This document shows, in pieces, positions 4,483 to 31,908 of a DNA stretch of 64,000 nucleotides. The stretch comes from an uncultured Candidatus Saccharibacteria bacterium. GTDB lineage: Bacteria > Patescibacteriota > Minisyncoccia > Phycocordibacterales > Zambryskibacteraceae. Made by a program: the position numbers and the translations under genes. The notes under the pieces were generated by a model. It was not told the DNA's origin, searched no databases, and saw only the letters and a program-made list of their open reading frames with translations. The stretch covers positions 78,204 through 142,203 of the forward strand of contig CAYFFP010000001.1 in NCBI GenBank assembly GCA_964342515.1, given 5' to 3'. The number at the start of each line of letters is the position of its first letter. Within the stretch, counting starts at the first letter, position 1.

Positions 4483-7400
4483 ATGACTACCTCGACAAAA
4501 AAGCCCACAGACACACCTATTGATCCAAAGATCAAAACAATAAGAGATTACCAGGAAAAAGTGGTAGATCTTTCTCGACGAAACCGTCTCCTGAAGTATC
4601 CTTTGAAGGCTCGCCGAATCTCATTTGATCTGAGTCTGCAAGATTTCCATGAGAATTATGGAATGTCTGAAGATTTTAGTATGGAATTTCTTCACAAACT
4701 TGTTCTTGCACAAGATGAGGATGGAAGTCAATTGCCACTATTTCACAATAAAAGGGGCAGAAAAAATGAAAATCAGAAATTCACTCCAATTACGACCCCT
4801 AAAGGAGAGAAGCTACTCAATGCTTTTATATCGCTTAGACTGGATGCCAAAAGAAAATTTGAAGAACATGGCTTAAATACTCTTTTTCTGACAATTGGAA
4901 AGATAAAGTGGAAAGAAAAACAAACAGGGAGAGGTTCTTCCGATGCGAGTGATGAATGGGATTATAATGCCCCATTACTCCTGATTCCTATAAAGATAGA
5001 GGACTACAGACAGCCGATAAAAAAGACGGTAATAAGGCAGGACTTTGAGAGCGGAGAGATTAGCGTTAATCCGATTTTGAGATTATTCCTAGAACGGCAA
5101 TACGGCATTGTAATTCCTGACCTGGAAATTCCGGAAGAAGTTGAAAATATCTCCATCCTCGTTAACAAGTTTGTAACAAAGTTTAAAAAGGCTTTTTCTG
5201 ATTCAAAAATTAAACACAATATCGATTTAGATATAGAGATTGGACAGTACTCATTCTACGGACAACAGATTTACGAGGATTTAAGGGATAACGAGGAGGA
5301 AATAGCAGACAATCCTTTCATTACTTCTTTATGTGAAAAGGCTTCCTTAACTCAAAAAAACTTTTCTGATGTTGAACCTAACCCCGAAAGACTTCTGGAT
5401 CCGGAGGAAGACTTCAGCATACTGGATGCCGACGTTAGTCAATTAGAAGTAATCCAGAAGGTCATATGGGGCCAGAGCATGGTTGTTCAAGGTCCACCGG
5501 GTACCGGCAAAAGCCAGACTATCGTAAATCTTGTTTCTAATCTGCTTGCTAGAGGTAAGAGCGTATTAGTAGTCTGCGAAAAACATGTTGCTTTGGAGGT
5601 TGTCTTGAAAAGATTAAAAGATGCCGGTCTGGACAAGCTCTGCTTACCCCTATTTCAATTCAGTACAGACAAAAGCCGTTTCGCTAAAAGTATAATCGAA
5701 GATAGAAATTACATCATTAAAAATTTCTCTTCAGAAAATAGAGCACTTCACTCTTCTTTGGAACTTAGACAAAAGAGTATAAATAAATTGAAAGATTATG
5801 CAAAAACTCTTTCAAAAATAATTGAACCATTGGGCAGAAATGTATTCTGGGTACATGGAGAATTATCTCGGATGCAGTCGATTAATTCTGACGACCCTAT
5901 CTTATGGAAGGGAAATGATCTACAGGCCATCACTTTTCCAGAATATCAAGAGTTAATTACTCTTACCGCCAATATAGCTCCGATATTAAAGAAAAAGGAA
6001 GAAAATGCAGTTGATTACTGGCAGTCAATAAAGAAAGAGCATTTCTCTCCCGACTACGCAACGCGAGTATTTCAGGCTCTGTCTGACGCTAAAAGAAATC
6101 TTAGTTCTTTAATAAAGATTAAGCCTGATTTGCTACCAATCCATTCCGTCTCCGATATTAAAAAAGCAGTAGAACTCAAGGAAAAAATAACTTCAATTTT
6201 ACCTCTAGATTTGCATAACTTGGGAATCAGAACTGACACTTCCATAGAAGATGTGATTACTGGGTTAAAAAAGCTAAATAAGATGTTGTCATTGTATGAA
6301 AAGACAAACTCTTCCTTAGCAAAGAAATACCTTGTACCGGAATCATGGTATTTACCAAACCAAAGTCATTTTGACGGCTTGAATGACAATGTCCTAATTG
6401 TTGATATTGAGAAGGCGGAAATAGAACTGAAAGCAACTGAGGACTCCTTAAAATTTACTAAGAAATTCCTATCTCAAAATAAGGCAGATTACTTAATTGC
6501 TCTACCGATCAATGAACTTTCGAAATATATTCCACTTTTCGAGCTAGATTCCGTCTTAAAGAAGCTTAGTTCATGGAATAACATTGGCTCACTTAAGTCT
6601 GCTGCTGAATCGATAGGGGTACTCTATGCGATTTATCAAAAATTGGAATCGGCTAAGCTCGAGTTTGAAAAGAGAGCCATTACTTTCGCTGATCTCAATG
6701 AATCAGAGGCCCTGGTGATCGCCGACAGATTTCAAGAGAAATATAAGTATTTTTTTAGATTTATTTTCCCTCAATACAAAAAGGATTGCATGGTAATTGC
6801 TTCATGGTGCGGAGTTGAAGTGCCGGTGAAATTCGCTGATTTCAATAAGATTGTCTTAAGTGTTCAAGATTGTTTTAGGCTTACCACGAAGTTTAAAGCT
6901 CTTTTGTCGCAGTTTAATCAGAAATGGACTCAAAAGAAAGATGGAGTTGGGTATGCTTCAATTCCAGGGTTGCATACGAATTTATCTAGATTGATCGATT
7001 GGCTCACTCTTGAAGGTAAGGAAGAACTGCCTCCTCAATTATTCAAATTTATTGAAACTAATCTAGATAATGAAGATCTGAAGACCTTGCCGTTAAGTCT
7101 GAATTCAATAAGCAAACTGTTGAACAATTTTTTAAAGGTTTTCAACTTAAATGATTCCCTATCCTTTAACGAGATTGAAAGTAAAAGAAGATCTTTGGAT
7201 AATCAAATAAAGAATATTATTCAGAACTACAGAAATGTCGTCGAGATTCTCCCAGAAAACCAACCAAAAACAGTCGACGAGATGAAGAGTGATATAGCTG
7301 CGATAAATCAACTGGCGGATGTCTTGAAAACAGTATCGAAAAAAGAACTGGATGACTTATTTCACCCAGAAACTAGCCTAAGGGAAATTGTCGGTCTCTC

Positions 7401-9396
7401 CTTACGATTCAATAAGGAAGGTGAGAAACTAGAAAAGATATCTGGGGCGGTTTCTAAATTTATTCCTGAATCAACCGCCTTAAGTTTAAGTCTGTTTAAT
7501 GATCTTCTCTTAAAATTGAACGAGAAAAGCATTCTCTGGGAACAACCTCTTGAGCAATACGAAACTTCCATTTCTAATCTTGATGGCCTCTTTGAAACTG
7601 AAGGTAGTCTAGCGCATCTTGAATTATTAAATCTTTCGGAACAGGATAAATCCCTTACTAAAATGAATTTGGATGTAGGTGGATTAGAAAATCAAATGAA
7701 TTTTGCAAGATATGCACATGTTTTTAGAGACAAAGGACATGAGTGGTTTCTCAAGGATATAAATGGCAAATCGATTGCCAACCTAAGTGCATTATTTGCT
7801 CAGTCCCTCTGGAACGCATGGCTAGATAATTATTACCGGAAAAATCCGGCCTTGAGAGACTTCAATATTCTTGAGCACAAGAAGGTCATGGCTGATTTCA
7901 AGGCGCTTGAGAGAGAAGTCTTGAAGATTAATGCCGCCCGAGTGATGGGGAAAGTCGGACCAATAGTTAAATCCCATAAATTACATTGCAATCAAGCTGA
8001 CGAGAGATATTTGGTCCATCAAAGTGAGCTCCAGCGTAGGCATAAGCCTATCCGGCAAGTAGTTACCAATTGCCCGGATCATCTCCAGGGTTATAAACCA
8101 TGTTGGATGATGAGCCCTCTGACCCTAAGCTCTTATATTCCCTATGGGAAAATGAATTTTGATGTCGTTATTTTTGACGAGGCATCTCAAATGAGAGTAG
8201 AACATGCTCTTGGTGCTATTGCTCGAGCCGGTCAAGTTGTTATATTTGGAGATGAACACCAATTGCCGCCTACCTCTTTCTTTGAAGTGACTTCCGAAGG
8301 AGACGAGGAATCCGAAGAAGAACAGGACTTTGAAAGTATTCTCCATGCCTCTAAAACGGTGCTTCCGAACGCAGACGAATCACTCTTATATCATTACCGA
8401 AGTAAACATGAGGACTTAATCGCTTTTTGCAATTATGAAGTCTATGATGGCCGTCTTATCACTTTTCCAAATCCAACTATAAGTAAGAGTGTGGGATTCG
8501 TGCATGTGGCGGATGGTGTATTTGATGGAGCAGTAAGTAGAGAAGGATATTCCGGCACAAGGAGAAATGATATCGAGGCTAAAAGAGTTGCCGAAGTCTG
8601 CGCCCAACATGCCGCTGATTATCCGGATAAATCTATCGGTGTGATCGCTTTCAGTAAGAGCCAAGAATTGGCTATAAGAGATGCCGTTATTAATCTGCTT
8701 GAGACAAATCCGGAAGTAAGGGATAAGCTGAATGAGGATGATCCTAGCTCTGATGCTTTCTTTATTAAAAATCTCGAATCAGTACAGGGTGATGAAAGAG
8801 ATATCATCGTCCTCTCAATTGGATATGCCAGAGATAAGAATGGCGATATGCATAACCGTTTCGGTCCTATAAATGCGAGAAGTGGCTATCGTAGGTTAAA
8901 TGTAGCTTTTACTCGCGCTAAAGAAAAAATTGTCTGCGTCTCCTCTATAAAGGCTACTGATATAAGGCCAGGCCCTACTGCCAGAGGAGCCAAGATGCTC
9001 CAACATTACTTGGATTATGCTGAAAATGGTCCTGCCGTATTGGTTTCTAGCCTGCTGGTCCAAAATAATGCAGTCGATGTCGATAGTCCATTTGAACTTG
9101 ATGTTGAAAAAGCCCTCATGGATCGAGGATACAAAATTGAAAGACAGGTTGGCGCTTCCGGATATAAGATCGATTTGGCGGTTATTGATCCTAAAAATGA
9201 CGGTCAATACATTTTAGGTATTGAATGCGATGGTGCTACTTACCACTCCTCTTATTCAGCTAGGGTAAATGACCGGCTTAGGCAAGATGTTCTAGAAAGG
9301 TTAGGTTGGAAAATCTATAGGGTTTGGTCTCAGCACTGGATCACTCATAAGAGTGAGATCGTTGACGACATTACTCGATCAATAAGTAAGATTTAA
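4483..9396 (+). CDS. Large SF1 (Upf1-like) helicase with N-terminal DUF4011-like region and C-terminal DUF559/Vsr-like PD-(D/E)xK endonuclease; Hhe-like
   Basis: Walker A GPPGTGKSQT. Motif II VIFDEASQM. AAA_12 motifs DERDIIVLSIGYAR and NVAFTRAKEKIVCVSS. N-terminus RRNRLLKYP is typical of DUF4011. C-terminus GYKIDLAVID...GIECDGATYHSS...RQDVLERLGWKIYRVWSQHW is a DUF559/Vsr-type nuclease fold. Confidence 0.85.
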   Translation: MTTSTKKPTDTPIDPKIKTIRDYQEKVVDLSRRNRLLKYPLKARRISFDLSLQDFHENYGMSEDFSMEFLHKLVLAQDEDGSQLPLFHNKRGRKNENQKFTPITTPKGEKLLNAFISLRLDAKRKFEEHGLNTLFLTIGKIKWKEKQTGRGSSDASDEWDYNAPLLLIPIKIEDYRQPIKKTVIRQDFESGEISVNPILRLFLERQYGIVIPDLEIPEEVENISILVNKFVTKFKKAFSDSKIKHNIDLDIEIGQYSFYGQQIYEDLRDNEEEIADNPFITSLCEKASLTQKNFSDVEPNPERLLDPEEDFSILDADVSQLEVIQKVIWGQSMVVQGPPGTGKSQTIVNLVSNLLARGKSVLVVCEKHVALEVVLKRLKDAGLDKLCLPLFQFSTDKSRFAKSIIEDRNYIIKNFSSENRALHSSLELRQKSINKLKDYAKTLSKIIEPLGRNVFWVHGELSRMQSINSDDPILWKGNDLQAITFPEYQELITLTANIAPILKKKEENAVDYWQSIKKEHFSPDYATRVFQALSDAKRNLSSLIKIKPDLLPIHSVSDIKKAVELKEKITSILPLDLHNLGIRTDTSIEDVITGLKKLNKMLSLYEKTNSSLAKKYLVPESWYLPNQSHFDGLNDNVLIVDIEKAEIELKATEDSLKFTKKFLSQNKADYLIALPINELSKYIPLFELDSVLKKLSSWNNIGSLKSAAESIGVLYAIYQKLESAKLEFEKRAITFADLNESEALVIADRFQEKYKYFFRFIFPQYKKDCMVIASWCGVEVPVKFADFNKIVLSVQDCFRLTTKFKALLSQFNQKWTQKKDGVGYASIPGLHTNLSRLIDWLTLEGKEELPPQLFKFIETNLDNEDLKTLPLSLNSISKLLNNFLKVFNLNDSLSFNEIESKRRSLDNQIKNIIQNYRNVVEILPENQPKTVDEMKSDIAAINQLADVLKTVSKKELDDLFHPETSLREIVGLSLRFNKEGEKLEKISGAVSKFIPESTALSLSLFNDLLLKLNEKSILWEQPLEQYETSISNLDGLFETEGSLAHLELLNLSEQDKSLTKMNLDVGGLENQMNFARYAHVFRDKGHEWFLKDINGKSIANLSALFAQSLWNAWLDNYYRKNPALRDFNILEHKKVMADFKALEREVLKINAARVMGKVGPIVKSHKLHCNQADERYLVHQSELQRRHKPIRQVVTNCPDHLQGYKPCWMMSPLTLSSYIPYGKMNFDVVIFDEASQMRVEHALGAIARAGQVVIFGDEHQLPPTSFFEVTSEGDEESEEEQDFESILHASKTVLPNADESLLYHYRSKHEDLIAFCNYEVYDGRLITFPNPTISKSVGFVHVADGVFDGAVSREGYSGTRRNDIEAKRVAEVCAQHAADYPDKSIGVIAFSKSQELAIRDAVINLLETNPEVRDKLNEDDPSSDAFFIKNLESVQGDERDIIVLSIGYARDKNGDMHNRFGPINARSGYRRLNVAFTRAKEKIVCVSSIKATDIRPGPTARGAKMLQHYLDYAENGPAVLVSSLLVQNNAVDVDSPFELDVEKALMDRGYKIERQVGASGYKIDLAVIDPKNDGQYILGIECDGATYHSSYSARVNDRLRQDVLERLGWKIYRVWSQHWITHKSEIVDDITRSISKI

Positions 9397-10985
9397 TGGT
9401 AATTACAAAATCAGATTATGTTTTATGGAGGGAATGTCCTCATAACTCTTGGGTAAAAAAGTGGAAGCCTGATCTTTATCACTCATCTCCATTGTCAGAC
9501 TTCGAGAAGCACCTGATTAATTCCGGAAATATGGTCGAGGAGACAGCTCGATTAAGATTTCCAGAGGGGGTGCTTATTAAAAGTAAGGGTGACGAAGCTT
9601 TAAGTAAAACTCAGGAGTTTTTAAAAAGCGATTCCGGTACTATTTTTCAAGCCTCGTTTTCAGATGGGACTCTTTTCGCCGCAGTAGATATTTTAAAACA
9701 CACTGGAAGCAAAGGGATGCAGCTTTATGAGGTTAAGGCTTCTAATTCATCAAAAACAGAATCAGAGGAGGACGAGATTAATAATGATGGAGATGAAGTA
9801 GTTAACAAGCTTGATCCAAAAGCATTAGAAAAGTACAAGAAGGAACTACTTAAGGACCACCATCTCTACGACCTTGCTTTTCAGGTCTACCTAGCCCGTA
9901 AGATTGGTCATAAGGTTACCGGGGCGTACCTTATGAGGTTGAATAAACAATATGTACGCGCTGGAGAGATTGATCTAAACAAACTTTTTGTAATTGAAGA
10001 CGTGCTTTCTTATGTCGACGAGGTACTTCCAAGAGTTAAGGAGGACATACAAATCTTAACCAAAATCCTTACTTCTTCTAGTGAACCAAAAGGGCCTTGT
10101 TGTTGTCTTAATAAAGGCAGATCCAATCATTGCACCACTTTTGCGATCCACAATAAGGATGTTCCATCCTACAGCGTCCATGACCTTACGGCTATTGGAA
10201 GAAGTAAGAAGAAACTAGATGAACTGATTGATTCTGGAATATACGACATTTTAGACATACCTGACGGTTTTGAATTTGGTAAGAAAATCCAAAAGCAAGT
10301 AGAGGTGCATAAGCGAGGCAAGGATTCTATTGATTACGAAACAATAGAGAGTGAACTTAAGACATTGCAATTTCCCCTTTACTTTCTTGACTACGAATCA
10401 TTTAATCCTGCTATACCACGTTTTTCTGGTTACAAACCATATCAACACATGCCTTTTCAGTTTTCAGTACACAGATTAGATAAACCAGATGGCGATCTAA
10501 TACATTCTGAATTTCTTTATACCGGCACAGAAGATCCAAGTCCTCTTTTTGTAGAAGCCTTAAAGAAAGCTATTGGTAAAAGCGGCAATATAATCGTGTG
10601 GTATAAACCTTTTGAAGAATCGCATATAAATAAAAAGATAGCTATTCGTATTCCCGAATGTGCTGATTTTATAAATGATTTAAACTCTCGCATGTTTGAC
10701 CTTATGACTATTTTTTCTAAACAGCTCCATATTCATCCAGATTTCCATGGTAGTGCCTCTATCAAAAAGGTCTTACCAGTTATATGTCCAGAACTTTCTT
10801 ATAAAGAAATGGAGATTGGTAATGGATCGGAAGCAATGAATACCTGGAATAAGTTAGTTATGGAAGAAGTATCAGATAAAGAGCGTCTAGGAGTAGAAAA
10901 GAATATGCTTGAATATTGTGGGCTCGATACATACGCCATGTATAAAATTTGGAAACATCTCATAGAGTTGAATAGCCACATATGA
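9396..10985 (+). CDS. DUF2779-family predicted nuclease (PD-(D/E)xK/Cas4-like N-terminus with Cys cluster, C-terminal exonuclease-like half)
   Basis: Start overlaps the helicase stop (TAATG). N-terminus KSDYVLWRECPHNSW resembles the DUF2779 SKS.F..G.QCPKRLW signature. EVKAS and DLAFQ blocks and a CCCLNKGRSNHC Cys cluster are present. Confidence 0.6.
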   Translation: MVITKSDYVLWRECPHNSWVKKWKPDLYHSSPLSDFEKHLINSGNMVEETARLRFPEGVLIKSKGDEALSKTQEFLKSDSGTIFQASFSDGTLFAAVDILKHTGSKGMQLYEVKASNSSKTESEEDEINNDGDEVVNKLDPKALEKYKKELLKDHHLYDLAFQVYLARKIGHKVTGAYLMRLNKQYVRAGEIDLNKLFVIEDVLSYVDEVLPRVKEDIQILTKILTSSSEPKGPCCCLNKGRSNHCTTFAIHNKDVPSYSVHDLTAIGRSKKKLDELIDSGIYDILDIPDGFEFGKKIQKQVEVHKRGKDSIDYETIESELKTLQFPLYFLDYESFNPAIPRFSGYKPYQHMPFQFSVHRLDKPDGDLIHSEFLYTGTEDPSPLFVEALKKAIGKSGNIIVWYKPFEESHINKKIAIRIPECADFINDLNSRMFDLMTIFSKQLHIHPDFHGSASIKKVLPVICPELSYKEMEIGNGSEAMNTWNKLVMEEVSDKERLGVEKNMLEYCGLDTYAMYKIWKHLIELNSHI

Positions 10986-11815
10986 AATATTTAAAGATAT
11001 TAGGAATATCAGTATCAGTCATCCTTATCCTGCTTGTAGTTATCGGATTCTCTCTAGGTAATCCAGAGTCAAATAAATTTTCTAGCTCGCAGGAAGTAAG
11101 CCAGGACATACCGGATAAGGAGCAAGTTCAGCAAACGGCTGCTGTAGAGACTGCAGAGCTGGATGTACCGGGAAGTCAAGGACCATATCAAGTAATCAAA
11201 GTGGTTGATGGCGATACCATAACGATTGATCTGAACGGCAAAGCGGAAACAATCCGGCTTATTGGCATCAATACTCCAGAAACAGTTGATCCAAGAAAGC
11301 CGGTGGAATGTTTCGGCGTAGAGGCTTCAAACAAGGCCAAAGAACTTTTAACAAACAAGCGCGTGTATATTGAGATGGACCCGACCCAAGGAGAGCGAGA
11401 CAAATACAGTCGCTTGCTTGCATATGTATATCGTGAGGACGGATTCTTCTTTAATAAGTCCATGATCCTTAGTGGCTATGCTTACGAATATACCTACAAC
11501 ATCCCCTATAAATACCAGAGTGAATTTAAGGAAGTACAGAGAAATGCCGAAATCAATCAAAGAGGCTTATGGGCTCCTGGTGTCTGTGAAGAAAAAGAAG
11601 CTACGCCAACACAGCAATCTACGCCGACACCTACACCTACGCAACCAACCCAATCAACTTCCGGATATTCATGCTCGGCAAATACATACAACTGCACAGA
11701 CTTCTCCACTCATGCCGAAGCTCAATCTGTTTATGAAATGTGCGGAGGGATAAATAACGATATTCATAGGCTTGATCAAGATAAAGATGGTGAAGCTTGT
11801 GAATCTTTGCCGTAG
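10982..11815 (+). CDS. Secreted thermonuclease (staphylococcal nuclease/SNase-like) with C-terminal Excalibur Ca-binding domain
   Basis: ATGA start/stop overlap with the upstream gene. N-terminal TM/signal. Block VDGDTITIDLNGKAETIRLIGINTPE...RLLAYVY...QRGLWA matches the SNase fold. C-terminus DQDKDGEACESLP is the Excalibur DxDxDGxxCE motif. A Thr/Pro/Gln linker separates the two. Confidence 0.8.
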   Translation: MKYLKILGISVSVILILLVVIGFSLGNPESNKFSSSQEVSQDIPDKEQVQQTAAVETAELDVPGSQGPYQVIKVVDGDTITIDLNGKAETIRLIGINTPETVDPRKPVECFGVEASNKAKELLTNKRVYIEMDPTQGERDKYSRLLAYVYREDGFFFNKSMILSGYAYEYTYNIPYKYQSEFKEVQRNAEINQRGLWAPGVCEEKEATPTQQSTPTPTPTQPTQSTSGYSCSANTYNCTDFSTHAEAQSVYEMCGGINNDIHRLDQDKDGEACESLP

Positions 11816-12581: not shown

Positions 12582-12654
12582 GGGCCCTTAGCTTAGTTGG
12601 TAGAGCGCCGCATTTGCAATGCGGAGGTCGGGAGTTCGAATCTCCCAGGGTCCA
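12582..12654 (+). tRNA. tRNA-Ala(TGC)
   Basis: Acceptor GGGCCCT/AGGGTCC with G3:U70. D-arm GCTT-AGTTGGTAG-AGCG. Anticodon arm CCGCA-TTTGCAA-TGCGG. T-arm GGGAG-TTCGAAT-CTCCC. Discriminator A, then CC. Confidence 0.85.
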
Positions 12655-12661
12655 CCGTTTT

Positions 12662-14630: not shown

Positions 14631-14701
14631 GGGCCTATGGTATAGTAGTAACACGCGTCCATGGCATGGACGAGTCGGGGGTGCGATTCCCCCTAGGTCC
14701 A
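14631..14701 (+). tRNA. tRNA-Ala(GGC), non-canonical T-loop (TGCGATT)
   Basis: Acceptor GGGCCTA/TAGGTCC with G3:U70. Anticodon arm CGTCC-ATGGCAT-GGACG gives anticodon GGC. T-arm GGGGG-TGCGATT-CCCCC. Confidence 0.65.
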
Positions 14702-14711
14702 CACGCGTCTT

Positions 14712-14785
14712 GGGCCTATAGTTTAGTAGCAGAACACGGCATTCGCATTGCCGAGACTCGAGTGCGATTCTCGATAGGTCCACCA
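14712..14785 (+). tRNA. tRNA-Ala(CGC) with encoded CCA
   Basis: Acceptor GGGCCTA/TAGGTCC. Anticodon arm CGGCA-TTCGCAT-TGCCG. T-arm TCGAG-TGCGATT-CTCGA. A-CCA is followed immediately by ATG of the next gene. Confidence 0.65.
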
Positions 14786-25436: not shown

Positions 25437-25625
25437 ATGGAATTTCTTACAAACGATGAAGTTGCAGAAGCTCTAAGAGTAAACCCAAGAACAGTAGATC
25501 GCTGGCTGAATAAGGGGTTGATGGAAGGTTACAAACTTGGAAAAGGGAAGACTGCTCTCTGGCGTATACCTAAGGGTGAAGTTAAAAGATTTTTGGAGAA
25601 GCATAGAAATAGAAAAAAGAAATGA
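25437..25625 (+). CDS. Excisionase/MerR-type HTH DNA-binding protein (putative recombination directionality factor)
   Basis: LTNDEVAEALRVNPRTVDRWLNKGLMEGYKLGKG...WRIPKGEV. Lies immediately upstream of and overlapping the serine recombinase (ATGA). TATATAAT at 25422-25432. Confidence 0.55.
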   Translation: MEFLTNDEVAEALRVNPRTVDRWLNKGLMEGYKLGKGKTALWRIPKGEVKRFLEKHRNRKKK

Positions 25626-27259
25626 ATCAGGACTTATCAAAAATAGAGAAACTGACAGCAACCTATTACAGAGTCTCAACTTCTAATCAGGAAGAAGCAC
25701 AAACAATCCAGACTCAGATTTCTGCTGTCAAAGAATTTGCTAGTAAGAATCATATAAAAATTATCCAAGAGTATATGGATGACGGCTGGAGTGGAGATAC
25801 ACTGATAAGACCCGCTCTAGATCAGTTAAGAGTAGATGCTAGAAAGAAAATGTGGGAAGCAGTTTTAGTCTATGATCCAGATAGACTGGCTAGACGTTAC
25901 TCTTATCAGGAGCTGGTAATGGATGAACTTAAGGAGGCTGGTATTGAGGTAATTTTTGTAACCACTCCTGCTCCTAAAAATAGCGAAGACAAGATCTTAC
26001 ATGGGGTAAAAGGCCTATTTGCTGAGTACGAAAGGGCGAAAATATCAGAAAGATTCAGATTAGGTAAACTGAGAAAGGCAAAGGAAGGACACATCATGAC
26101 ATCGGAAGCTCTTTACGGGTATAGATATATTCCAAGAATAGATAAAGAACAGGGTCGTTATGAAATAAATGAAGAAGAAGCAAGAGTTGTGAAAATGATT
26201 TTCAAATGGGTGGGTGAGGAGGGTCTAACGCTTCGTGCTGTAGTGAAAAGATTGATGGATGTGAAGATTAGACCAAGAAAAAGTAAGAAGGGTGTATGGG
26301 CTACCAGCACGTTAACAACGATGCTTAGACATAAAGGCTATATCGGAGAAGCTCATTGGGGGAAATCATACGCTGTTGTGCCAGAGAATCCATATAAGAT
26401 TGAAAAGTATCGTAAGCAGAAAAAATCTAGTCGCAGGGATCGTCCAGAGGAGGAGTGGTATATCATTCCAATACCTAGAATTATAGATAGAGAATTATTC
26501 GAACGTGTTCGAAAGCAGTTACAAGTGAACTTCGCTTTGTGCAAGCGTAATAAGAGGAATGATTATCTTTTAGCAAGTAAAATATGGTGTTCTTGTGGTT
26601 CTAGAAGGTGTGGTTGTGGACCACAAAAGGGTAAGCATCTCTATTATCGATGTAATGACAGAATTAAAAGCTTTCCACTTCCTGCTAAATGTAAAGAGGG
26701 AGCAGTAAATGCCAGAATCGGTGATCAGTTAGTATGGGAAAGGGTGGCGAATTTAATGAGTTCACCAGAATTATTATTGAAGCAGGCAGAGAGGTGGTTA
26801 AATAATCGTCAAAGTAAAAAAGTATCATCATTGACTGACATCAAGGACTTAGAAAAGGAATCAAAAAAGCTCAAGGATCAAGAAGAGCGATACAATAAAG
26901 CTTATGGGGTAGGTCTACTAAGTATGGAACAGTTGAGAGATTACACCATACCCATCAGAGAAAGGTTGGGGGTTGTCGATTCACAAATAATAAAGACTAA
27001 AGAAGAGAACAATCAAATAGTTTCAATGGGTATGCCGAGCAAGAAAGAAGTGGAGATCTTTGCAAAGGTAGCATCCAGAAAATTACGAAACTTGAATTTC
27101 GAACTGAAACGGGAGATAGTATTGAGCACTGTAGAGAAGGTTGTTGGAAACCAAGAAAAGCTACAAGTTTATGGATATATACCAATAAATCATGTCTTAT
27201 TCAGCTCTGAGTATCGGCATTGTCGGGCTGCCGAACGTGGGGAAGTCCACGCTCTTTAA
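25622..27259 (+). CDS. Large serine recombinase (integrase) with resolvase catalytic domain, recombinase domain, zinc ribbon and coiled coil
   Basis: [10 protein letters not shown] supplies the catalytic Ser. DRLARR. Cys cluster [11 protein letters not shown]...YYRCN. A coiled-coil follows. The 3' end reads 68 nt into ychF in another frame. Confidence 0.85.
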
Positions 27260-28007
27260 CGCGCTGACGAAAAAGGGGGTGCCGGCGGAGAATTATCCTT
27301 TCTGCACCATCGACCCATCGGTGGGTATCGTGCCAGTGCCTGACGAAAGACTCGATAAATTGGCGGAGCTTTCTAAATCTAAAAAAGTCATCCCGGCTGT
27401 TGTTGAGTTTGTAGATATAGCCGGACTGGTGAAAGGGGCTAGCGAGGGCGAGGGGCTCGGAAACAAGTTCCTCTCTCACATTCGCGAAGTGGATGCCATT
27501 ATCGAGGTGGTGAGAATCTTTGAAGATAAAGATATCATCCACGTGCATGACAAAGTTGACCCGCTCTTCGATATCGAAATTATTAATCTTGAATTAGAGA
27601 AAGCGGGGATACAGAAGCCGACTCTCTATGTGCTCAATATGTCGGAAGCGGCGGAGAATTTGGAATTTAATGTTCCCGGACCTTATGTAAAAATTGATCC
27701 GGTATTTGGTACTGGTTTAGATAAATTGATAGTAGAAGCATACAAACTCCTCGATCTGATCACTTTCTTTACCACCGGAGAGAAGGAGAGTAGGGCTTGG
27801 ACGACTCGCCGCGGTTCAACTGCGCCAGAAGCGGGCAAATCCATTCATACTGATTTCCAAGAAAAATTCATCCGCGCAGAAGTGATTCACTACGACAAAC
27901 TCCTTGAAGCCGGCTCTTACGCCAACGCCCGCGCCAAGGGGTGGGTAAGAACGGAGGGAAAGGAATACATCGTCCAAGACGGCGACGTGATTGAATTTTT
28001 GATTTAA
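27192..28007 (+). CDS. ychF: Ribosome-binding ATPase YchF (Obg-like), shortened form
   Basis: [18 protein letters not shown] is the P-loop. C-terminal TGS-like block [13 protein letters not shown]...[14 protein letters not shown]...GDVIEFL follows. Confidence 0.8.
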
Positions 28008-28048: not shown

Positions 28049-28324
28049 ATGAAAACGATGCTTAATGTAAAAACCGATAGCAAACTTAAGAAAGACGCTC
28101 AAAGAACAGCCAAAGAAGCGGGTATACCTATAAGTTTAGTTGTAAATAGTGCTCTGAAGAAGTTCGTGGCGCAGCGCTCAATTATTATAGAAGCGCCGCT
28201 TATTCCTAATGCCAAAACGGCTAAAATTCTCGACAGAGCTTTGAAGGACATTAAAGCTGGTAAAAATCTTTCTCCTGTATTTAAGACTGCGGCAGAAATG
28301 GATCGCTATCTTAATTCTTTATGA
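28049..28324 (+). CDS. RelB/DinJ-family antitoxin
   Basis: KTDSKLKKDAQRTAKEAGIPISLVVNSALKKF is the ribbon-helix-helix DinJ pattern. Overlaps the toxin gene (ATGA). Confidence 0.6.
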   Translation: MKTMLNVKTDSKLKKDAQRTAKEAGIPISLVVNSALKKFVAQRSIIIEAPLIPNAKTAKILDRALKDIKAGKNLSPVFKTAAEMDRYLNSL

Positions 28325-28581
28325 ACCCCGAACTTCATCGTAGTTTCAACAAAGATTATAAAAAACTTCCAGAAAAATTAAAAAGACAATTTAAAATCCG
28401 AAGAAACCTATTTTTAGGAAACCCATTTAACCGTATTCTCAATAACCACGAGCTTCATGGCAGTTATGAAGATTGTAGGAGCATCAACATTACCGGCGAC
28501 TATCGCGCCGTCTATTTTATGAAAAAAGATGCGGCCATTTTTATCCGCATAGGCACTCACAGCGAATTGTTTGGAAAGTGA
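28321..28581 (+). CDS. YafQ/RelE-family mRNA interferase toxin
   Basis: HELHGSYEDCRSINITGDYRAVYF...IFIRIGTHSELF matches the YafQ C-terminal signature (RtGtHsdLF). Confidence 0.65.
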   Translation: MNPELHRSFNKDYKKLPEKLKRQFKIRRNLFLGNPFNRILNNHELHGSYEDCRSINITGDYRAVYFMKKDAAIFIRIGTHSELFGK

Positions 28582-28595
28582 TATAATCAAACATC

Positions 28596-29174
28596 ATGCA
28601 AAACACAGTCACAAAGTGGTCGGTAATTTTAGGTATCGTTATAGTGCTTAACTTGTTTTTCAACTACACGATTTCTCTAGTTTATGAGAGACCGGATTAC
28701 GAAGATTACTGCCCGCAGTCGCAAGTAGTGGTCGTGCCAGATACGCAGGAGGAGTGCGTGGCGGAAGGCGGACAATGGACTGACAACGCCTATTACAGCA
28801 AGCCCATTCGTCCGGAATTCCCGGAGCCAGTTGGCTACTGCGACCTTCAATACACTTGCAGACAGGAATACGAATCAGCCCACGATACTTATCAAAGAAA
28901 TGTTTTCGTCGTCTTGGTAGTGCTTGGTGCGCTCTCGGTCCTGGTTGGCTCCGCCAGCTGGCGGATTTTCAGGGGTAATGTGGTGATATCCAACGGTCTC
29001 TCGCTGGCCGGATTATTCTCCTTCATCATCGCCAGCATCCGCTACTGGGGCTCGGCAGATAATCTGATCAGAGTTATAATCCTCGCCATCGCATTGGGAA
29101 TCCTCTTCTGGATTGCGATGAAAAAATTCAATGACCAAAATGACCGAGTACGACCCGAAGGAAATAGAGAGTAA
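28596..29174 (+). CDS. Hypothetical membrane protein with Cys-rich extracytoplasmic region
   Basis: 192 aa, N- and C-terminal TM helices. Confidence 0.4.
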   Translation: MQNTVTKWSVILGIVIVLNLFFNYTISLVYERPDYEDYCPQSQVVVVPDTQEECVAEGGQWTDNAYYSKPIRPEFPEPVGYCDLQYTCRQEYESAHDTYQRNVFVVLVVLGALSVLVGSASWRIFRGNVVISNGLSLAGLFSFIIASIRYWGSADNLIRVIILAIALGILFWIAMKKFNDQNDRVRPEGNRE

Positions 29175-31908
29175 ATGGCAGAAAAATTGGGAAGAATCTG
29201 GTATTTACCGCGCGGAGGATAAGTCGAAGAAGCCAAAGTATTATACCCTCATAGAATTTCCGTATCCGTCGGGAGATGGGCTACATGTCGGACATCCGCG
29301 TCCTTACATTGGACTGGATGTTGTATCACGCAAGCGCAGGATGCAGGGTTACAACGTGCTTTATCCCATTGGCTGGGACGCTTTCGGCTTGCCCACAGAA
29401 AATTACGCGATAAAGACCGGCAAAGATCCGCGGCAGGTAACGAAAGAAAATACAAATACCTTCCGCCGGCAAATCCAATCTCTCGGCATCTCTTTCGATT
29501 GGTCAAGAGAGATTAATACTACCGACCCAAAGTATTACAAATGGACGCAATGGATTTTCTTAAAACTACTTGAGCACGGCTTGGCTTACAAAGCCAAGAT
29601 TCCGGTCAACTGGTGCCCGAAAGACAAAATTGTTTTGGCCAATGAAGAAGTGGTGAATGGCTGCTGCGAACGTTGCGGTACGCCGGTAGAACAGAAGGAG
29701 AGGGAGCAATGGATGCTCGCTATTACCAAATACGCGGACAGATTACTCTCCGGTCTCGATGAGGTTGATTATCCGGAGCGGGTGAAAGTTCAGCAGAGGA
29801 ATTGGATAGGAAAGTCTGAAGGGGCTCTCATTAAGTTCGACGATATAGAAGTTTTCACTACTCGGCCGGACACAATTTTCGGCGCGACTTTCTTGGTGAA
29901 AGCGGGCAAAGAAGATAAATTTACCGGAGAGTACGTAACTAATCCAGTGACCAAAGAAAAAATTCCTGTCTGGGAAGCGGAATATGTGTATTCCGACTAT
30001 GGCACAGGCGCGATCATGGCCGTGCCCGCTCATGATGAGCGTGATTATGAGTTTGCAAAGAAGCACGACATCCCGATACGACAAGTTATTATCCCTAAGT
30101 ACACTGATCCAAGTAACCCACATCGAGAAGGCAAAGAAACAGTTTTTAGAAACGCTGTAATTGTAATTCTTCGAAATCCGAAAACAGCTGAAATTCTTAC
30201 TTTAAAATGGAAGAAGTTACCTTGGACTACATTTGTAATGGGGGGCATTGAAAAAGAAGAAACTCCTGAACAAGCCGCTGTTAGAGAGATATTAGAAGAG
30301 ACGGGATACAAGAATGTAAGAATCATAAAACTTCTAGGTGGCCAGATACACAATGAATTTTTCGCCGAGCATAAAAATGAGAATCGAATTGTGCATACTC
30401 AGGGAATATTTGCTGAGCTTGTAGATGAGGAGCGAGAGAAAATTTCTCAGGAAGAAGGGGATAAATATGAAATTGAATGGATTAAAGAAATAGAAGTTGA
30501 TCCTAGAGATCTTAAGCATACTGAAGCAGAAGAATTATTGAGAAGAATAAATGTGGATGAATCGTATATCGGAGAGGGTTTGCTTATAAATTCTAATGGA
30601 TTTGACGGACTTACATCAGAAGAGGCCAGAGAGAAGATTACCGAAAAATTCGGCAAAAAGGTTATTAAGTACAAATTGCGTGATTGGGTCTTCTCCCGCC
30701 AGCGCTATTGGGGAGAGCCGATACCGGTGGTGCACTGCGAGAAATGTGGAGTTGTTGCCGTTCCCGAATCAGAACTTCCGGTAAAGTTGCCGGAAGTGAA
30801 GAATTATCAGCCGACCGATACTGGTGAATCGCCTTTAGCAAATATTAAAGAGTTTGTTGACACCGAGTGTCAACAGTGCGGGGGAAAGGCCAAGAGGGAA
30901 ACGGACGTGATGCCCAATTGGGCGGGTTCCTCGTGGTATTTCTTACGCTACACCGATCCGCATAATGATAAGGAGTTTGCATCAATGGAAAAATTGAAAT
31001 ACTGGATGGGGGATGCCAGCTTGCCCCGTACCGAGCGAAGCTCTGGTACTGGGGTGGATTGGTACAACGGCGGGATGGAGCATACTGTGCTTCACCTTCT
31101 CTACTCGCGCTTCTGGAATAAATTCCTTTTCGACATCGGTGCGGTACCGGTAGATGAGCCGTACAAGAAACGTACTTCCCATGGATTGATTCTCGCCGAA
31201 GGCGGGGAGAAAATGAGTAAGTCCAAGGGCAACGTCATCAATCCCGACTCGATCGTTCTACGCTTCGGCGCTGACACTCTGCGTTTGTATGAGATGTTTA
31301 TGGGACCCTTCGAGCAGGCAATCGCGTGGAATGACAGCTCGCTTGTGGGACCGAGAAGATTTCTTGAAAAAATTTGGAGACTACGGGAGAAACTTCCGAC
31401 CTCACCCGGCTTTCAGCCACCCTCTCCTAGCGCAAGGAGAGGGGCAGGGGGTGAGGTGAATTTTCATCAAGCTATCAAAAAAGTTTCCGACGATATCGAG
31501 ACGCTTGGATTTAACACGGCCGTCTCGACTCTAATGATCTTTGCTAATGATCTGGATAAGAAAGAAAAAATTTCAAAAGAAGAATACGAAACTTTGCTCA
31601 AGCTTCTCGCGCCGTTCGCGCCACACATGACAGAAGAGTTATGGCATGAACTTGGACATAAAGATTCGATACATGAAGAAGAGTGGCCGACTTACGATGA
31701 AACAAAACTTGTGCCAGAGACTGTTACGATTGTGGTTCAGGTCAACGGCAAGGTAAGGGGCAAATTTGCGGCCAGAGCAAATTTGAAAGAAAAAGAAATC
31801 CTAGAGAAAGCGAAGGAGTTGCCGGAAATACAAAAGTGGCTTGGGGACAAAAAAGTGGAGAAGTCAATTTATGTGCCGAAAAAATTGATAAATTTCGTCG
31901 TAAAATAG
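29131..31908 (+). CDS. leuS: Leucyl-tRNA synthetase with inserted NUDIX hydrolase domain
   Basis: HIGH region PYPSGDGLHVGH. Editing motif TTRPDT. AVPAHDERDYEFA. KMSKS present. C-terminus VQVNGKVRGKF. A perfect Nudix box GGIEKEETPEQAAVREILEETGY lies at approx 30235-30303, inside an AT-rich segment (approx 30120-30560). Confidence 0.9.
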   Translation: MTKMTEYDPKEIESKWQKNWEESGIYRAEDKSKKPKYYTLIEFPYPSGDGLHVGHPRPYIGLDVVSRKRRMQGYNVLYPIGWDAFGLPTENYAIKTGKDPRQVTKENTNTFRRQIQSLGISFDWSREINTTDPKYYKWTQWIFLKLLEHGLAYKAKIPVNWCPKDKIVLANEEVVNGCCERCGTPVEQKEREQWMLAITKYADRLLSGLDEVDYPERVKVQQRNWIGKSEGALIKFDDIEVFTTRPDTIFGATFLVKAGKEDKFTGEYVTNPVTKEKIPVWEAEYVYSDYGTGAIMAVPAHDERDYEFAKKHDIPIRQVIIPKYTDPSNPHREGKETVFRNAVIVILRNPKTAEILTLKWKKLPWTTFVMGGIEKEETPEQAAVREILEETGYKNVRIIKLLGGQIHNEFFAEHKNENRIVHTQGIFAELVDEEREKISQEEGDKYEIEWIKEIEVDPRDLKHTEAEELLRRINVDESYIGEGLLINSNGFDGLTSEEAREKITEKFGKKVIKYKLRDWVFSRQRYWGEPIPVVHCEKCGVVAVPESELPVKLPEVKNYQPTDTGESPLANIKEFVDTECQQCGGKAKRETDVMPNWAGSSWYFLRYTDPHNDKEFASMEKLKYWMGDASLPRTERSSGTGVDWYNGGMEHTVLHLLYSRFWNKFLFDIGAVPVDEPYKKRTSHGLILAEGGEKMSKSKGNVINPDSIVLRFGADTLRLYEMFMGPFEQAIAWNDSSLVGPRRFLEKIWRLREKLPTSPGFQPPSPSARRGAGGEVNFHQAIKKVSDDIETLGFNTAVSTLMIFANDLDKKEKISKEEYETLLKLLAPFAPHMTEELWHELGHKDSIHEEEWPTYDETKLVPETVTIVVQVNGKVRGKFAARANLKEKEILEKAKELPEIQKWLGDKKVEKSIYVPKKLINFVVK

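What the first reader, a model, noticed from the sequence alone, without database searches (positions are those of the whole stretch)
30120..30560. NUDIX hydrolase domain inserted inside leucyl-tRNA synthetase
The LeuRS reading frame is continuous and otherwise canonical (HIGH, TTRPDT, AHDERDYEF, KMSKS). About 150 aa have been inserted between the post-editing AHDERDYEFAKKHDIPIRQVI block and the GLLINSNGFDGL block. The insert contains a textbook Nudix box: GGIEKEETPEQAAVREILEETGY, i.e. G-x5-E-x7-REUxEE-xGU. The insert is markedly more AT-rich than the flanking gene, suggesting recent acquisition. A Nudix module inside an aaRS could hydrolyse Ap4A (a by-product of aaRS), nucleotide alarmones or mis-activated adenylates. 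The CP1 editing domain in this LeuRS also appears shortened.
Basis: seen in the sequence. Interest (0 to 1): 0.75.

Follow-up and report, generated by a model that had tools for sequence, protein, structure and literature searches.

The report
Nudix hydrolase nested inside LeuRS editing domain
A working-looking Nudix nucleotide hydrolase really is built into the proofreading domain of this bacterium's leucyl-tRNA synthetase; this is an old, strongly conserved and apparently undescribed architecture found in hundreds of Patescibacteria species, whose LeuRS also hosts other small hydrolases.

Summary
ORF 29131-31908 is a bacterial LeuRS (TIGR00396, 943 bits) with HIGH, KMSKS and intact editing motifs. 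About 155 aa (aa 321-475, nt 30091-30555) replace a short surface loop inside the CP1 editing domain and match Pfam NUDIX (E=1.8e-14) with a complete Nudix box.

It is not a misassembly. The same protein lies on three independent contigs, and 482 loci in species-representative genomes encode a relative of the insert. The catalytic glutamates are kept in 184/192 same-site copies, and insert dN/dS (0.03-0.08) is at or below that of the LeuRS core. AlphaFold models the insert (pLDDT 94) and CP1+Nudix (pTM 0.84) confidently.

"Recent acquisition" is not supported as stated. The GC3 break is real (0.26 vs 0.52), but the feature is ancient and shared with the closest relative. The insert's history is nevertheless partly decoupled from the core, with clear mosaic pairs.

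Unexpectedly, the same Nudix subfamily also occurs free-standing, at three or four other LeuRS sites (up to three copies), and once in ProRS. Related LeuRS also nest Ham1/ITPase, HAD and serine-hydrolase domains.

The substrate is unknown; a (di)nucleoside polyphosphate such as Ap4A is the best guess. No paper describing this was found.

The parts
29131..31908 (+). Leucyl-tRNA synthetase ORF (925 aa; probable true start at 29140, 922 aa = P0005)
   Evidence: ORF; TIGR00396, 943 bits vs cutoff 548; 4e-206 to T. thermophilus LeuRS 1h3n; exact protein on 3 contigs
29284..29295 (+). HIGH signature (HVGH, aa 52-55) of the class I catalytic core
29794..30090 (+). CP1 editing domain, N-terminal part (about aa 222-320), with the T-rich motif TTRPDT (29857-29874), GTG (30001-30018) and AHDERD (30028-30045). 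It lacks about 36 aa relative to E. coli CP1.
   Evidence: PF13603; alignment with E. coli; motif conservation 74-76 of 76; spacer 42 vs 78
30091..30555 (+). Nudix insert (aa 321-475). The Pfam NUDIX match covers aa 339-470 (nt 30145-30540).
   Evidence: E=1.8e-14; insertion point; same site in 76 of 120 relatives; AF2 pLDDT 94.2, pTM 0.88; Nudix fold matches
30241..30309 (+). Nudix box GGIEKEETPEQAAVREILEETGY (aa 371-393), with catalytic residues E386, E389 and E390
30556..30666 (+). CP1 editing domain, C-terminal part (aa 476 to about 512; GEGLLINSNGFDGL at 30571-30612), leading back into the catalytic core
   Evidence: this block is deleted together with the Nudix in the insert-less relatives
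30076..30621 (+). Low-GC3 tract (aa 316-497; GC3 about 0.26 vs 0.52 in the rest of the gene), nearly coincident with the insert
31210..31224 (+). KMSKS signature (aa 694-698). No leucine-specific domain precedes it (Tth 594-636 has no counterpart).
31462..31797 (+). Anticodon-binding domain (PF08264, aa 778-889)

Best explanation
SHOWN: this is the LeuRS of a Paceibacteria-type (Patescibacteria/CPR) bacterium. All synthetic and editing signatures are intact. A complete Nudix pyrophosphohydrolase domain of about 155 aa is nested in a surface loop of the CP1 editing domain, which is itself an insertion in the Rossmann fold, so the arrangement is a domain within a domain within a domain. The module keeps its metal-binding and catalytic Nudix-box residues and a subfamily-specific set of residues (R340, W365, F/Y410-411, K415, N418, R419, W450) that is shared with free-standing proteins of about 160 aa from the same kind of bacteria. 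Within lineages it is under purifying selection as strong as the synthetase itself. It is predicted to pack rigidly against CP1. INFERRED: it is an active hydrolase working in cis with the synthetase, rather than a part of aminoacylation or editing chemistry. The most likely substrates are (di)nucleoside polyphosphates of the Ap4A/Np4N type, which aminoacyl-tRNA synthetases make when the enzyme-bound adenylate reacts with a second NTP (established aaRS chemistry, my own knowledge). The Nudix would cleave them back to mononucleotides next to their source. Fusion guarantees 1:1 expression with an essential enzyme in a tiny genome. The module has been recruited to aaRS repeatedly and exchanged between lineages by recombination. 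My confidence is about 0.95 for the anatomy, about 0.85 that it is a catalytically active Nudix, and about 0.35-0.4 for the Ap4A/Np4N-type substrate.
For: Anatomy. Not an artefact and widespread; all 62 full-length GTDB ORFs align as LeuRS over 769 core columns. Catalytic residues: (E16/E19/E20 all present in 184/192 site-A copies, 21/23 site-B/C, 3/3 site-D, 26/29 free-standing; R340, K415, N418, R419 and W450 shared by all classes). Purifying selection: insert dN/dS 0.026-0.084 vs core 0.049-0.116 in seven close pairs. Fold: pLDDT 94.2, pTM 0.88. CP1+Nudix: pLDDT 91.9, pTM 0.84, no low-confidence linker, and the CP1 half matches solved LeuRS CP1 domains. LeuRS functions retained: HIGH, KMSKS, TTRPDT, GTG and HDxRD conserved. 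Link to aaRS: of the 150 best representatives of this Nudix subfamily among 1.84 billion proteins, 122 are embedded in LeuRS at four mapped positions, with 1-3 copies, and one is embedded in a class II ProRS. Polyphosphate-type substrate: the nearest characterised relatives are the Aquifex Ap4A hydrolase 3i7u, the diphosphoinositol-polyphosphate/ApnA hydrolases and RppH (weak RppH hits). There is a conserved aromatic residue 17-18 positions after the box and conserved basic residues. The rule that ApnA hydrolases have a tyrosine 16-18 residues downstream of the box is recalled from Dunn et al. 1999, not tested here.
Against: No substrate assignment reaches a curated threshold: RppH models score 24-30 bits against cutoffs of 116-259, and MutT models 17-24 against 98-148. 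Structural neighbours are generic (about 20% identity) and include MutT, MutT1 and NUDT15, which are NTP sanitisers. Relatives of this LeuRS also nest Ham1/ITPase, HAD and alpha/beta serine hydrolase domains. That fits a general house-cleaning or hitch-hiking theme as well as it fits an Ap4A-specific role. Free-standing homologues with the same specificity residues show that the enzyme does not need LeuRS. A few sub-lineages have degenerate boxes (P0010/P0012, P0028/P0051), and some relatives have lost the module, so it is dispensable in some backgrounds.
Confidence: 0.4

Rival explanations
1. It is a house-cleaning NTP pyrophosphatase that merely rides on LeuRS. The Nudix is a MutT-like sanitiser of damaged or non-canonical nucleotides. 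It is nested in LeuRS only because LeuRS is large, essential, constitutively expressed and rich in insertion-tolerant loops, and it has no mechanistic link to aminoacylation.
For: The same LeuRS family nests other classical house-cleaning hydrolases: Ham1/ITPase (P0177, 197 bits; P0142), HAD (P0138, P0264) and serine hydrolases (P0038, P0205, P0239, P0191, P0194). Free-standing homologues share the specificity residues. Top structural hits include uncharacterised MutT/Nudix proteins, MutT1, NUDT15 and MutT. Insertion sites are varied surface loops.
Against: Host specificity is striking. 122 of the top 150 subfamily members sit in LeuRS, one sits in ProRS, and none was seen in other large essential proteins. 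That is hard to explain by permissiveness alone. MutT models are far below threshold.
Confidence: 0.3
2. It is an RNA-end enzyme that uses LeuRS to hold the tRNA. The Nudix is RppH-like and removes pyrophosphate or a nucleotide cap from the 5' end, or a pyrophosphoryl-type block from the 3' end, of tRNA-Leu while CP1 positions the acceptor end.
For: The only curated-family hits besides generic Nudix are RppH models, and they are weak. E. coli RppH structures are among the best fold matches. The module is predicted to be rigidly docked on CP1, the domain that binds the tRNA 3' end. The fact that tRNA 5' and 3' ends lie next to each other is established knowledge.
Against: RppH scores are 4-10 times below the cutoffs. 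The same module also occurs free-standing, at sites in the catalytic half of LeuRS, and in ProRS between the anticodon-binding and C-terminal domains, so no common geometry toward the acceptor end is evident. No evidence was obtained on tRNA 5' ends in these organisms.
Confidence: 0.1
3. It is a selfish or neutral in-frame cassette, or a non-catalytic structural module. The insert persists because it is tolerated and spreads by recombination, without giving the host any enzymatic benefit.
For: Insert and core histories are decoupled: r=-0.07 and 0.29, against controls of 0.75-0.88. There are mosaic pairs. Presence or absence varies among close relatives. There are multiple sites and copies. 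The window shows a GC3 break resembling its low-GC islands.
Against: Insert dN/dS is 0.03-0.08, and catalytic and specificity residues are nearly invariant. There are no flanking repeats and no endonuclease or intein domains in this gene. Free-standing homologues are conserved as ordinary genes.
Confidence: 0.07
4. It is an assembly chimera or frameshift artefact that joins a Nudix gene to LeuRS.
For: Only the compositional discontinuity.
Against: The identical 922-aa protein is on an ENA 43.5-kb contig, a Logan 7.7-kb contig and an NCBI 185-kb contig. The same in-frame junctions are seen in 76 of the 120 closest LeuRS relatives and in 80 of 80 fetched GTDB loci. The reading frame is continuous, with LeuRS on both sides.
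Confidence: 0.01

Closest known systems
Canonical bacterial LeuRS (T. thermophilus 1h3n/2byt; E. coli 4aq7/4arc)
   Same: Same family (TIGR00396, 943 bits). It has the HIGH and KMSKS motifs, a CP1 editing domain with the TTRPDT, GTG and HDxRD motifs, an anticodon-binding domain and a C-terminal domain.
   Different: It carries a 155-aa Nudix domain in a CP1 loop that is 11-20 aa long in Tth and E. coli. It lacks about 36 aa of CP1 (E. coli about 262-300) and the leucine-specific domain (Tth 594-636). No solved LeuRS contains a Nudix.
Free-standing Patescibacterial Nudix proteins of about 160 aa (P0001-P0003, P0161, P0200, P0207, P0242 and others)
   Same: Same Nudix subfamily. They are 42-63% identical to embedded copies, with the same box and the same R340/K415/N418/R419/W450 signature.
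   Different: They are independent genes in unrelated neighbourhoods, not next to leuS. They are uncharacterised, and the only source name is the generic 'MutT (NUDIX family)'.
Ap4A/ApnA hydrolases, DIPP enzymes and RppH (Aquifex 3i7u; NUDT3/4; E. coli RppH 4s2x/7sp3)
   Same: These are the nearest characterised sequences and folds. The Nudix box, the alpha/beta/alpha sandwich and an aromatic residue about 17 positions after the box are shared.
   Different: Only about 20% identity. Curated RppH models score far below their cutoffs. The specificity residues are not demonstrably shared, so membership is not established.
Other aaRS carrying an extra enzyme domain, e.g. NCBIfam NF040702 'isoleucine--tRNA ligase, N-acetyltransferase domain-containing'
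   Same: A class Ia synthetase that has acquired an unrelated catalytic domain. This family appears in the NCBIfam listing.
   Different: The extra domain is different (GNAT, not Nudix), the host is different (IleRS), and our protein scores only 74 bits against a cutoff of 1999. The placement of that domain was not examined here.
Survey of domain insertions (Protein Sci 2026, PMC13114784)
   Same: It treats the LeuRS editing domain (PF13603) as a classic inserted module in tRNA-synthetase hosts.
   Different: That survey reports 'zero instances of host function' for the editing domain across 213 events. Here CP1 is itself the host of a Nudix, and in relatives of Ham1 and serine-hydrolase domains.

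Membership tests
Nudix hydrolase superfamily (PF00293) | Profile match above the curated threshold | tested here: met
   54.4 bits in the whole protein and 59.8 bits for the insert alone, against a gathering score of 21.1
Nudix hydrolase superfamily (PF00293) | Nudix box G-x5-E-x7-R-E-U-x-E-E-x-G-U with the catalytic glutamates | tested here: met
   GGIEKEETPEQAAVREILEETGY at aa 371-393. It is conserved in 76 orthologues and in 184/192 same-site copies.
Nudix hydrolase superfamily (PF00293) | Alpha/beta/alpha sandwich fold | tested here: met
   AF2 pLDDT 94.2. There are 523 PDB Nudix matches at E<=0.001, with TM up to 0.77.
Nudix hydrolase superfamily (PF00293) | Divalent-cation-dependent hydrolysis of a nucleoside diphosphate linked to X | not testable with these tools
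   Needs an enzyme assay
Bacterial leucyl-tRNA synthetase (TIGR00396 leuS_bact) | Equivalog model above the curated cutoff | tested here: met
   943.2 bits against 548.4
Bacterial leucyl-tRNA synthetase (TIGR00396 leuS_bact) | Class I HIGH and KMSKS signatures | tested here: met
   HVGH 52-55 and KMSKS 694-698
Bacterial leucyl-tRNA synthetase (TIGR00396 leuS_bact) | CP1 editing site: T-rich motif and the universally conserved Asp of HDxRD | tested here: met
   TTRPDT 243-248 and AHDERD 300-305. These are conserved in 74-76 of 76 Nudix-bearing relatives. The CP1 fold matches solved CP1 domains.
Bacterial leucyl-tRNA synthetase (TIGR00396 leuS_bact) | Leucylation of tRNA-Leu and hydrolysis of mischarged tRNA | not testable with these tools
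   Needs biochemistry
RppH / NudH (RNA pyrophosphohydrolase, ApnA hydrolase group) | NCBIfam equivalog models above cutoff | tested here: not met
   Best scores are 24-30 bits against cutoffs of 116-259
RppH / NudH (RNA pyrophosphohydrolase, ApnA hydrolase group) | Aromatic residue 16-18 positions downstream of the Nudix box (rule recalled from Dunn et al. 1999) | tested here: inconclusive
   F410 (F55/Y20 of 76) and F411 (F42/Y31) lie at +17 and +18. Phe is more common than the canonical Tyr.
MutT (8-oxo-dGTP diphosphatase) | NCBIfam equivalog models above cutoff | tested here: not met
   17-24 bits against cutoffs of 98-148
Intein or homing-endonuclease type mobile insertion | Hint/splicing or endonuclease domain, or terminal repeats or target duplication | tested here: not met
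   No such Pfam domain in the protein. Only short, chance-level repeats flank the insert.

The most novel reading that the evidence does not exclude
LeuRS of Paceibacteria is a platform into which a repertoire of small hydrolase cassettes (Nudix in 1-3 copies, Ham1/ITPase, HAD, alpha/beta serine hydrolase, DUF559 nuclease) has been inserted in-frame repeatedly at several loops and swapped between lineages by recombination. That would be a previously undescribed mode of domain-level mobility. It would produce multi-enzyme synthetases that couple aminoacylation to clearing nucleotide by-products or sanitising the nucleotide pool, with the Nudix in this window being one recently exchanged allele.
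Probability: 0.3. Interest if true: 0.85.

Novelty: new variant of a known kind. Interest (0 to 1): 0.7.

Why it matters
Aminoacyl-tRNA synthetases are among the best-studied enzymes, and the CP1 editing domain is regarded as a pure inserted module. Here CP1 hosts a second, apparently active enzyme, across hundreds of species of a major uncultivated bacterial radiation.

If the Nudix destroys Ap4A-type products at their source, it would be a physical link between a synthetase and the turnover of a long-debated alarmone, and the link could be tested directly with recombinant protein.

The recurrent nesting of Nudix, ITPase, HAD and serine-hydrolase domains in LeuRS, and of Nudix in ProRS, suggests a general strategy in reduced genomes. 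It also offers natural examples of domain insertion that preserve two or more activities, which is useful for protein engineering.

The core/insert mosaicism bears on using LeuRS as a phylogenetic marker. On the practical side, NCBI names the closest relative checked only 'class I tRNA ligase family protein', so these proteins may be under-annotated.

Tried and rejected
1. Misassembly was rejected.

2. A search with the insert alone in the word-indexed protein database returned only four free-standing Nudix proteins and missed every LeuRS insert, including the 100% self-match. It would have wrongly suggested that the insert is unique. The full-length search and the exhaustive profile search corrected this.

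3. The exact-protein lookup from M1 failed, but it succeeded from M4.

A tighter 10-sequence alignment worked.

5. Explaining the GC3 dip by amino-acid composition was rejected: expected 0.488, observed 0.258.

6. Explaining the GC3 dip by lower conservation was rejected: predicted 0.478, observed 0.238.

7. Explaining the GC3 dip as a simple recent acquisition is not sufficient. Synonymous sites between the window and L007 are saturated in both core and insert (0.45 and 0.46), and the dip is general.

8. Signatures of a mobile element around the insert were not found: no meaningful direct or inverted repeats and no intein or endonuclease domain.

9. Recent tandem duplication as the origin of multi-copy proteins was rejected, because copies within one protein are only 24-47% identical.

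10. A link to defence systems or phages was not found. There was one weak PADLOC hit (PDC-S07, 20.6 bits) and only generic Nudix PHROGs.

11. The AFDB fold library was unavailable.

12. Seven literature searches found no description of a Nudix-LeuRS.

13. The first core-tree parsimony count (18 changes) rests on a crude NJ tree, and I do not rely on it. 40 of the 44 insert-less sequences are nearest to another insert-less sequence, and they share one deletion boundary, which fits few loss events.
Full report
**1. What is in the sequence**

The + strand carries one uninterrupted ORF, 29131-31908, of 925 aa. It scores 943 bits on the bacterial LeuRS equivalog TIGR00396 (cutoff 548) and matches Pfam tRNA-synt_1, the LeuRS editing domain PF13603 and Anticodon_1. 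It aligns end to end with T. thermophilus LeuRS at E=4e-206. Gene callers start it at M4 (29140), giving 922 aa, which is protein P0005.

HVGH (aa 52-55), TTRPDT (243-248), GTG (291-293), AHDERD (300-305) and KMSKS (694-698) are all present.

Pfam NUDIX matches aa 339-470 at E=1.8e-14, which is 54 bits against a threshold of 21. The box GGIEKEETPEQAAVREILEETGY (aa 371-393, nt 30241-30309) fits the Nudix consensus exactly.

Against T. thermophilus, query 261-320 aligns to Tth 303-362 and query 476 onward to Tth 374 onward. Against E. coli, the insert falls between 'KPVILAADGSEPDLSQQ' and 'ALTEKGVLFNSGEFNGL'. So about 155 aa (aa 321-475, nt 30091-30555) replace a short loop inside CP1, not after it.

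**2. Not an artefact, and not rare**

- The identical protein lies on an ENA contig of 43.5 kb, a Logan contig of 7.7 kb and an NCBI contig of 185 kb.
- Of the 120 best LeuRS relatives, 76 carry 137-159 aa at exactly this position and have PF00293. The others have 5-6 residues there, except P0036 with 31.
- A scan of one genome per GTDB species, using two peptide patterns from the insert, found 482 loci encoding a relative.
- In all 80 loci fetched, the Nudix lies inside a long ORF. All 62 full-length ORFs align as LeuRS over 769 core columns.
- Record titles name Zambryski-, Nomura-, Vogel-, Yonath-, Wolfe- and Taylorbacteria, Paceibacteria and Minisyncoccia. Some bulk-submitted MAGs carry labels such as 'Saccharibacteria' or 'Gammaproteobacteria', which I do not trust.

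**3. Is it a functional Nudix?**

- Across the 76 orthologous inserts, G371 is kept in 76/76, E377 in 69, R385 in 71, E386 in 76, E389 in 74, E390 in 75 and G392 in 76. Further invariant or nearly invariant residues are R340, W365, K415, N418, R419 and W450, and F/Y is found at 410 and 411.
- In a larger set of 247 domain copies, the three catalytic glutamates are all present in 184/192 same-site copies.
- In seven pairs close enough for unsaturated synonymous sites, insert dN/dS is 0.026-0.084 against 0.049-0.116 for the LeuRS core. Insert dN is at or below core dN in six of the seven.
- AlphaFold2 folds the insert at pLDDT 94.2 and pTM 0.88 as an alpha/beta/alpha sandwich.
- The best PDB matches are uncharacterised MutT/Nudix proteins (2azw, 3smd), E. 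coli RppH, the Aquifex Ap4A hydrolase, M. smegmatis MutT1, NUDT15 and MutT, all at about 20% identity.
- By sequence, the nearest solved chains are 3smd, the Aquifex Ap4A hydrolase and the diphosphoinositol-polyphosphate/ApnA hydrolases.
- No curated subfamily model is reached. RppH models score 24-30 bits against cutoffs of 116-259, and MutT models 17-24 against 98-148.

The domain is therefore almost certainly an active Nudix, but its substrate class is not assigned.

**4. State of the host enzyme**

The editing motifs are conserved in Nudix-bearing LeuRS: TTRPDT in 74/76, GTG in 75-76/76, and the His and both Asp of HDxRD in 76/76. A 305-aa CP1+Nudix construct is modelled at pLDDT 91.9 and pTM 0.84 with no low-confidence linker. 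Its CP1 half superposes on solved LeuRS CP1 domains. This suggests a rigidly docked two-domain unit, but I could not measure the geometry.

The TTRPDT-to-GTG spacer is 42 aa against 78 in E. coli, owing to the loss of roughly E. coli residues 262-300. It is a sub-clade trait, however: 54 of the 62 GTDB Nudix-bearing loci that could be scored have spacers of 80-89 aa. The leucine-specific domain is also absent.

The relatives of about 720 aa without the insert lack the Nudix and also the next ~30 aa of CP1 ('GEGxLxNSxxFxG...'). All of them have the short CP1, and 38 of 44 have His changed to Asp in HDxRD. P0036 keeps a 31-aa remnant. These look like secondary deletions on a path of CP1 erosion.

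**5. Age and mode of evolution**

'Recent acquisition' does not hold as stated, because the feature is lineage-wide and the closest relative (P0006/L007; core 84%, insert 76% identical) shares it.

The compositional break is nevertheless real:

| Measure | Value |
|---|---|
| GC3, insert | 0.258 |
| GC3, rest of the gene | 0.523 |
| GC3 expected from the insert's amino-acid composition | 0.488 |
| GC3 predicted from conservation alone (Met/Trp codons excluded) | 0.478 (observed 0.238) |
| Best change-points | aa 316-497 |
| Permutations reaching the observed likelihood ratio | 0 of 200 |

Core genes in the window have a median GC3 of 0.53. Values near 0.3 otherwise occur in likely foreign islands.

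A weaker dip is general: mean -0.057, negative in 60 of 69 orthologues, minimum -0.195. The window, at -0.265, is therefore an extreme case of a systematic trend. Synonymous sites between the window and L007 are saturated in both core and insert (0.45 and 0.46), so recency alone cannot explain the dip. I record it as unexplained. Candidate causes are GC-biased gene conversion acting on the recombining conserved core but not on the divergent insert, or replacement from low-GC donors.

Independently, the insert and core histories are partly decoupled:

- Pairwise distances correlate at r=-0.07 in the set ascertained by total score.
- They correlate at r=0.29 in the set ascertained by insert similarity, against 0.88 for random variable core columns and 0.75 for the N-terminal versus C-terminal core half. 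Both sets carry ascertainment bias, so I put more weight on individual pairs.
- L055/L086: core 95% and insert 61% identical. Same-codon fraction at identical residues is 0.73 in the core against 0.51 in the insert (Fisher p=2e-5). Insert dN is 0.258 with saturated dS, against a core dS of 0.61.
- L034/L035 shows the reverse pattern: core 55%, insert 74%, same-codon 0.44 against 0.59, p=0.006.
- Within lineages the insert changes about as slowly as the core. So pairs such as P0005/P0010 (core 83%, insert 35%, a different indel pattern and a partly degenerate box) are better explained by cassette replacement than by drift.
- There are no repeats, no target duplication and no endonuclease or intein domain at the site.

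**6.

A profile of the insert, searched against 1.84 billion representative proteins, gave 174 hits at E<=1e-30. I classified the best 150 with local segment HMMs:

- 122 are LeuRS: 110 with one copy, 10 with two and 2 with three.
- The positions are the site seen here; between the catalytic core and CP1 (P0214, P0235, P0128, P0125, P0126); inside the N-terminal part of CP1 (P0127, P0130, P0267, and P0038/70/76/79/100/118); inside the C-terminal catalytic half (P0139, P0143, P0246); and in tandem (P0131).
- Copies within one protein are only 24-47% identical, whereas copies at the same site in different proteins are 60-80% identical.
- 28 representatives have no catalytic, CP1a or anticodon-domain LeuRS match. 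Most are proteins of 154-200 aa, and three of them retain a short CP1b match and may be gene fragments. Free-standing sequences interleave with embedded ones; for example, P0242 is 63% identical to the embedded copy in P0233.
- All classes share the catalytic residues and the R340/K415/N418/R419/W450 signature.

Pfam scans confirm two-copy architectures. They also show that P0268 is a class II ProRS with this Nudix between its anticodon-binding and C-terminal domains. Related LeuRS carry further nested domains:

| Nested domain | Proteins |
|---|---|
| Ham1/ITPase | P0177 (197 bits), P0142 |
| HAD phosphatase | P0138, P0264 |
| Alpha/beta serine hydrolase PF06821 | P0038, P0205, P0239, P0191, P0194 (two copies) |
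| DUF559 / Vsr-like nuclease | P0028, P0051 (both with a degenerate Nudix box) |

**7. Mechanism**

Shown: an intact LeuRS plus an intact, selected, rigidly modelled Nudix of a subfamily that also works as a stand-alone protein.

Inferred: the Nudix is an autonomous hydrolase acting in cis with the synthetase.

Two observations pull in different directions. The overwhelming preference for aaRS hosts (LeuRS, and once ProRS) argues for a link to adenylate chemistry. aaRS are the classical source of Ap4A/Np4N, and the nearest characterised relatives (Ap4A hydrolase, DIPP, RppH) act on polyphosphate-bridged nucleotides. On the other hand, the co-nesting of ITPase and HAD domains and the existence of free-standing homologues argue for generic nucleotide house-cleaning carried on a convenient essential scaffold.

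I commit to hydrolysis of Ap4A/Np4N-type substrates at about 0.35-0.4. NTP sanitation is at about 0.3, RNA-end processing at about 0.1, a selfish or non-catalytic module at about 0.07, and the remainder is unknown.

**8. Comparison with what is known, and novelty**

The protein is a member of the bacterial LeuRS family and of the Nudix superfamily, and all sequence- and fold-level criteria for both are met. It is not demonstrably a member of the RppH, Ap4A-hydrolase or MutT families, because their thresholds are not met.

Seven full-text searches found no description of a Nudix in LeuRS. A 2026 survey of domain insertions explicitly reports the LeuRS editing domain as never acting as a host. 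The sequences are in public databases with automatic PF00293 hits; NCBI names the closest relative checked (P0006) 'class I tRNA ligase family protein', and several other relatives carry the same name.

I rate this a new variant of a known kind: an aaRS with a novel nested catalytic domain. The broader pattern (section 6) might deserve more.

**9. Verdict**

Interest is 0.7.

Noticed in passing
Related proteins P0177, P0142 (Ham1/ITPase); P0138, P0264 (HAD); P0038, P0205, P0239, P0191, P0194 (serine hydrolase PF06821); P0028, P0051 (DUF559/Vsr-like nuclease): Patescibacterial LeuRS relatives carry other small hydrolase or nuclease domains nested in-frame at various loops, usually together with the Nudix. 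In the two DUF559-bearing proteins the Nudix box is degenerate (AEIVQETGY).
   Followed up: partly
Related protein P0268 (643 aa, JGI 'prolyl-tRNA synthetase'): A class II ProRS (PF00587 + PF03129 + PF09180) carries the same Nudix subfamily at aa 398-515, between the anticodon-binding and C-terminal domains. So the module is not restricted to LeuRS or to class I synthetases.
   Followed up: partly
Related proteins P0125, P0126 (three Nudix copies); P0127-P0134, P0139, P0143 (two copies): Some LeuRS carry two or three Nudix domains at different sites. Copies within one protein are only 24-47% identical, so they are old or independent acquisitions rather than recent duplications.
   Followed up: partly
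Related proteins P0042, P0046-P0050 and others (44 insert-less LeuRS of about 720 aa); P0036: The close relatives without the Nudix also lack the next ~30 aa of CP1, and 38 of 44 have His changed to Asp in the HDxRD editing motif. P0036 keeps a 31-aa remnant. These may be LeuRS with eroding or lost editing function.
   Followed up: partly
window 31009-31053 and 31396-31458: Two short GC-rich segments (GC 0.67-0.68) lie within LeuRS: GDASLPRTERSSGTG in the catalytic core and PTSPGFQPPSPSARRGAGGEV before the anticodon-binding domain. They fall in alignment columns occupied by few relatives. Their origin is unknown.
   Followed up: partly
window 2541-2613 and 2709-11812: A block of low-GC3 ORFs (GC3 0.30-0.39, including a 1637-aa ORF at 4483-9393) begins right after a tRNA-Arg(tct) gene. 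That is the classic layout of an integrated island. Core genes in the window have a median GC3 of 0.53.
   Followed up: no
window 25622-27259 and 27192-28007: A large serine recombinase ORF (Resolvase + Recombinase domains, GC3 0.34), preceded by a small HTH_17 gene, overlaps by 68 nt the P-loop-encoding 5' end of the ychF-like GTPase ORF. The public gene call starts ychF later (225 aa) and drops the P-loop. This may be a mobile element integrated at the ychF start.
   Followed up: no
window 28049-28581: A toxin-antitoxin-like gene pair (91-aa and 86-aa ORFs; the second hits YafQ/ParE toxin families) lies two genes upstream of leuS and has low GC (0.33-0.40).
   Followed up: no
window 28596-29174 vs 29131/29140: The 192-aa predicted membrane-protein ORF upstream overlaps the leuS start by 35-44 nt, which suggests co-transcription or translational coupling.
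   Followed up: no
window 12582-12656, 14631-14702, 14712-14785: Three tRNA-Ala genes (anticodons tgc, ggc, cgc) lie within 2.2 kb, the last two only 10 nt apart.
   Followed up: no
Tool behaviour: The word-indexed protein search with the 163-aa insert returned only four free-standing Nudix proteins and missed the 100% identical LeuRS (P0005) and all other embedded copies. Short domain queries can badly under-report nested domains in that index.
   Followed up: yes
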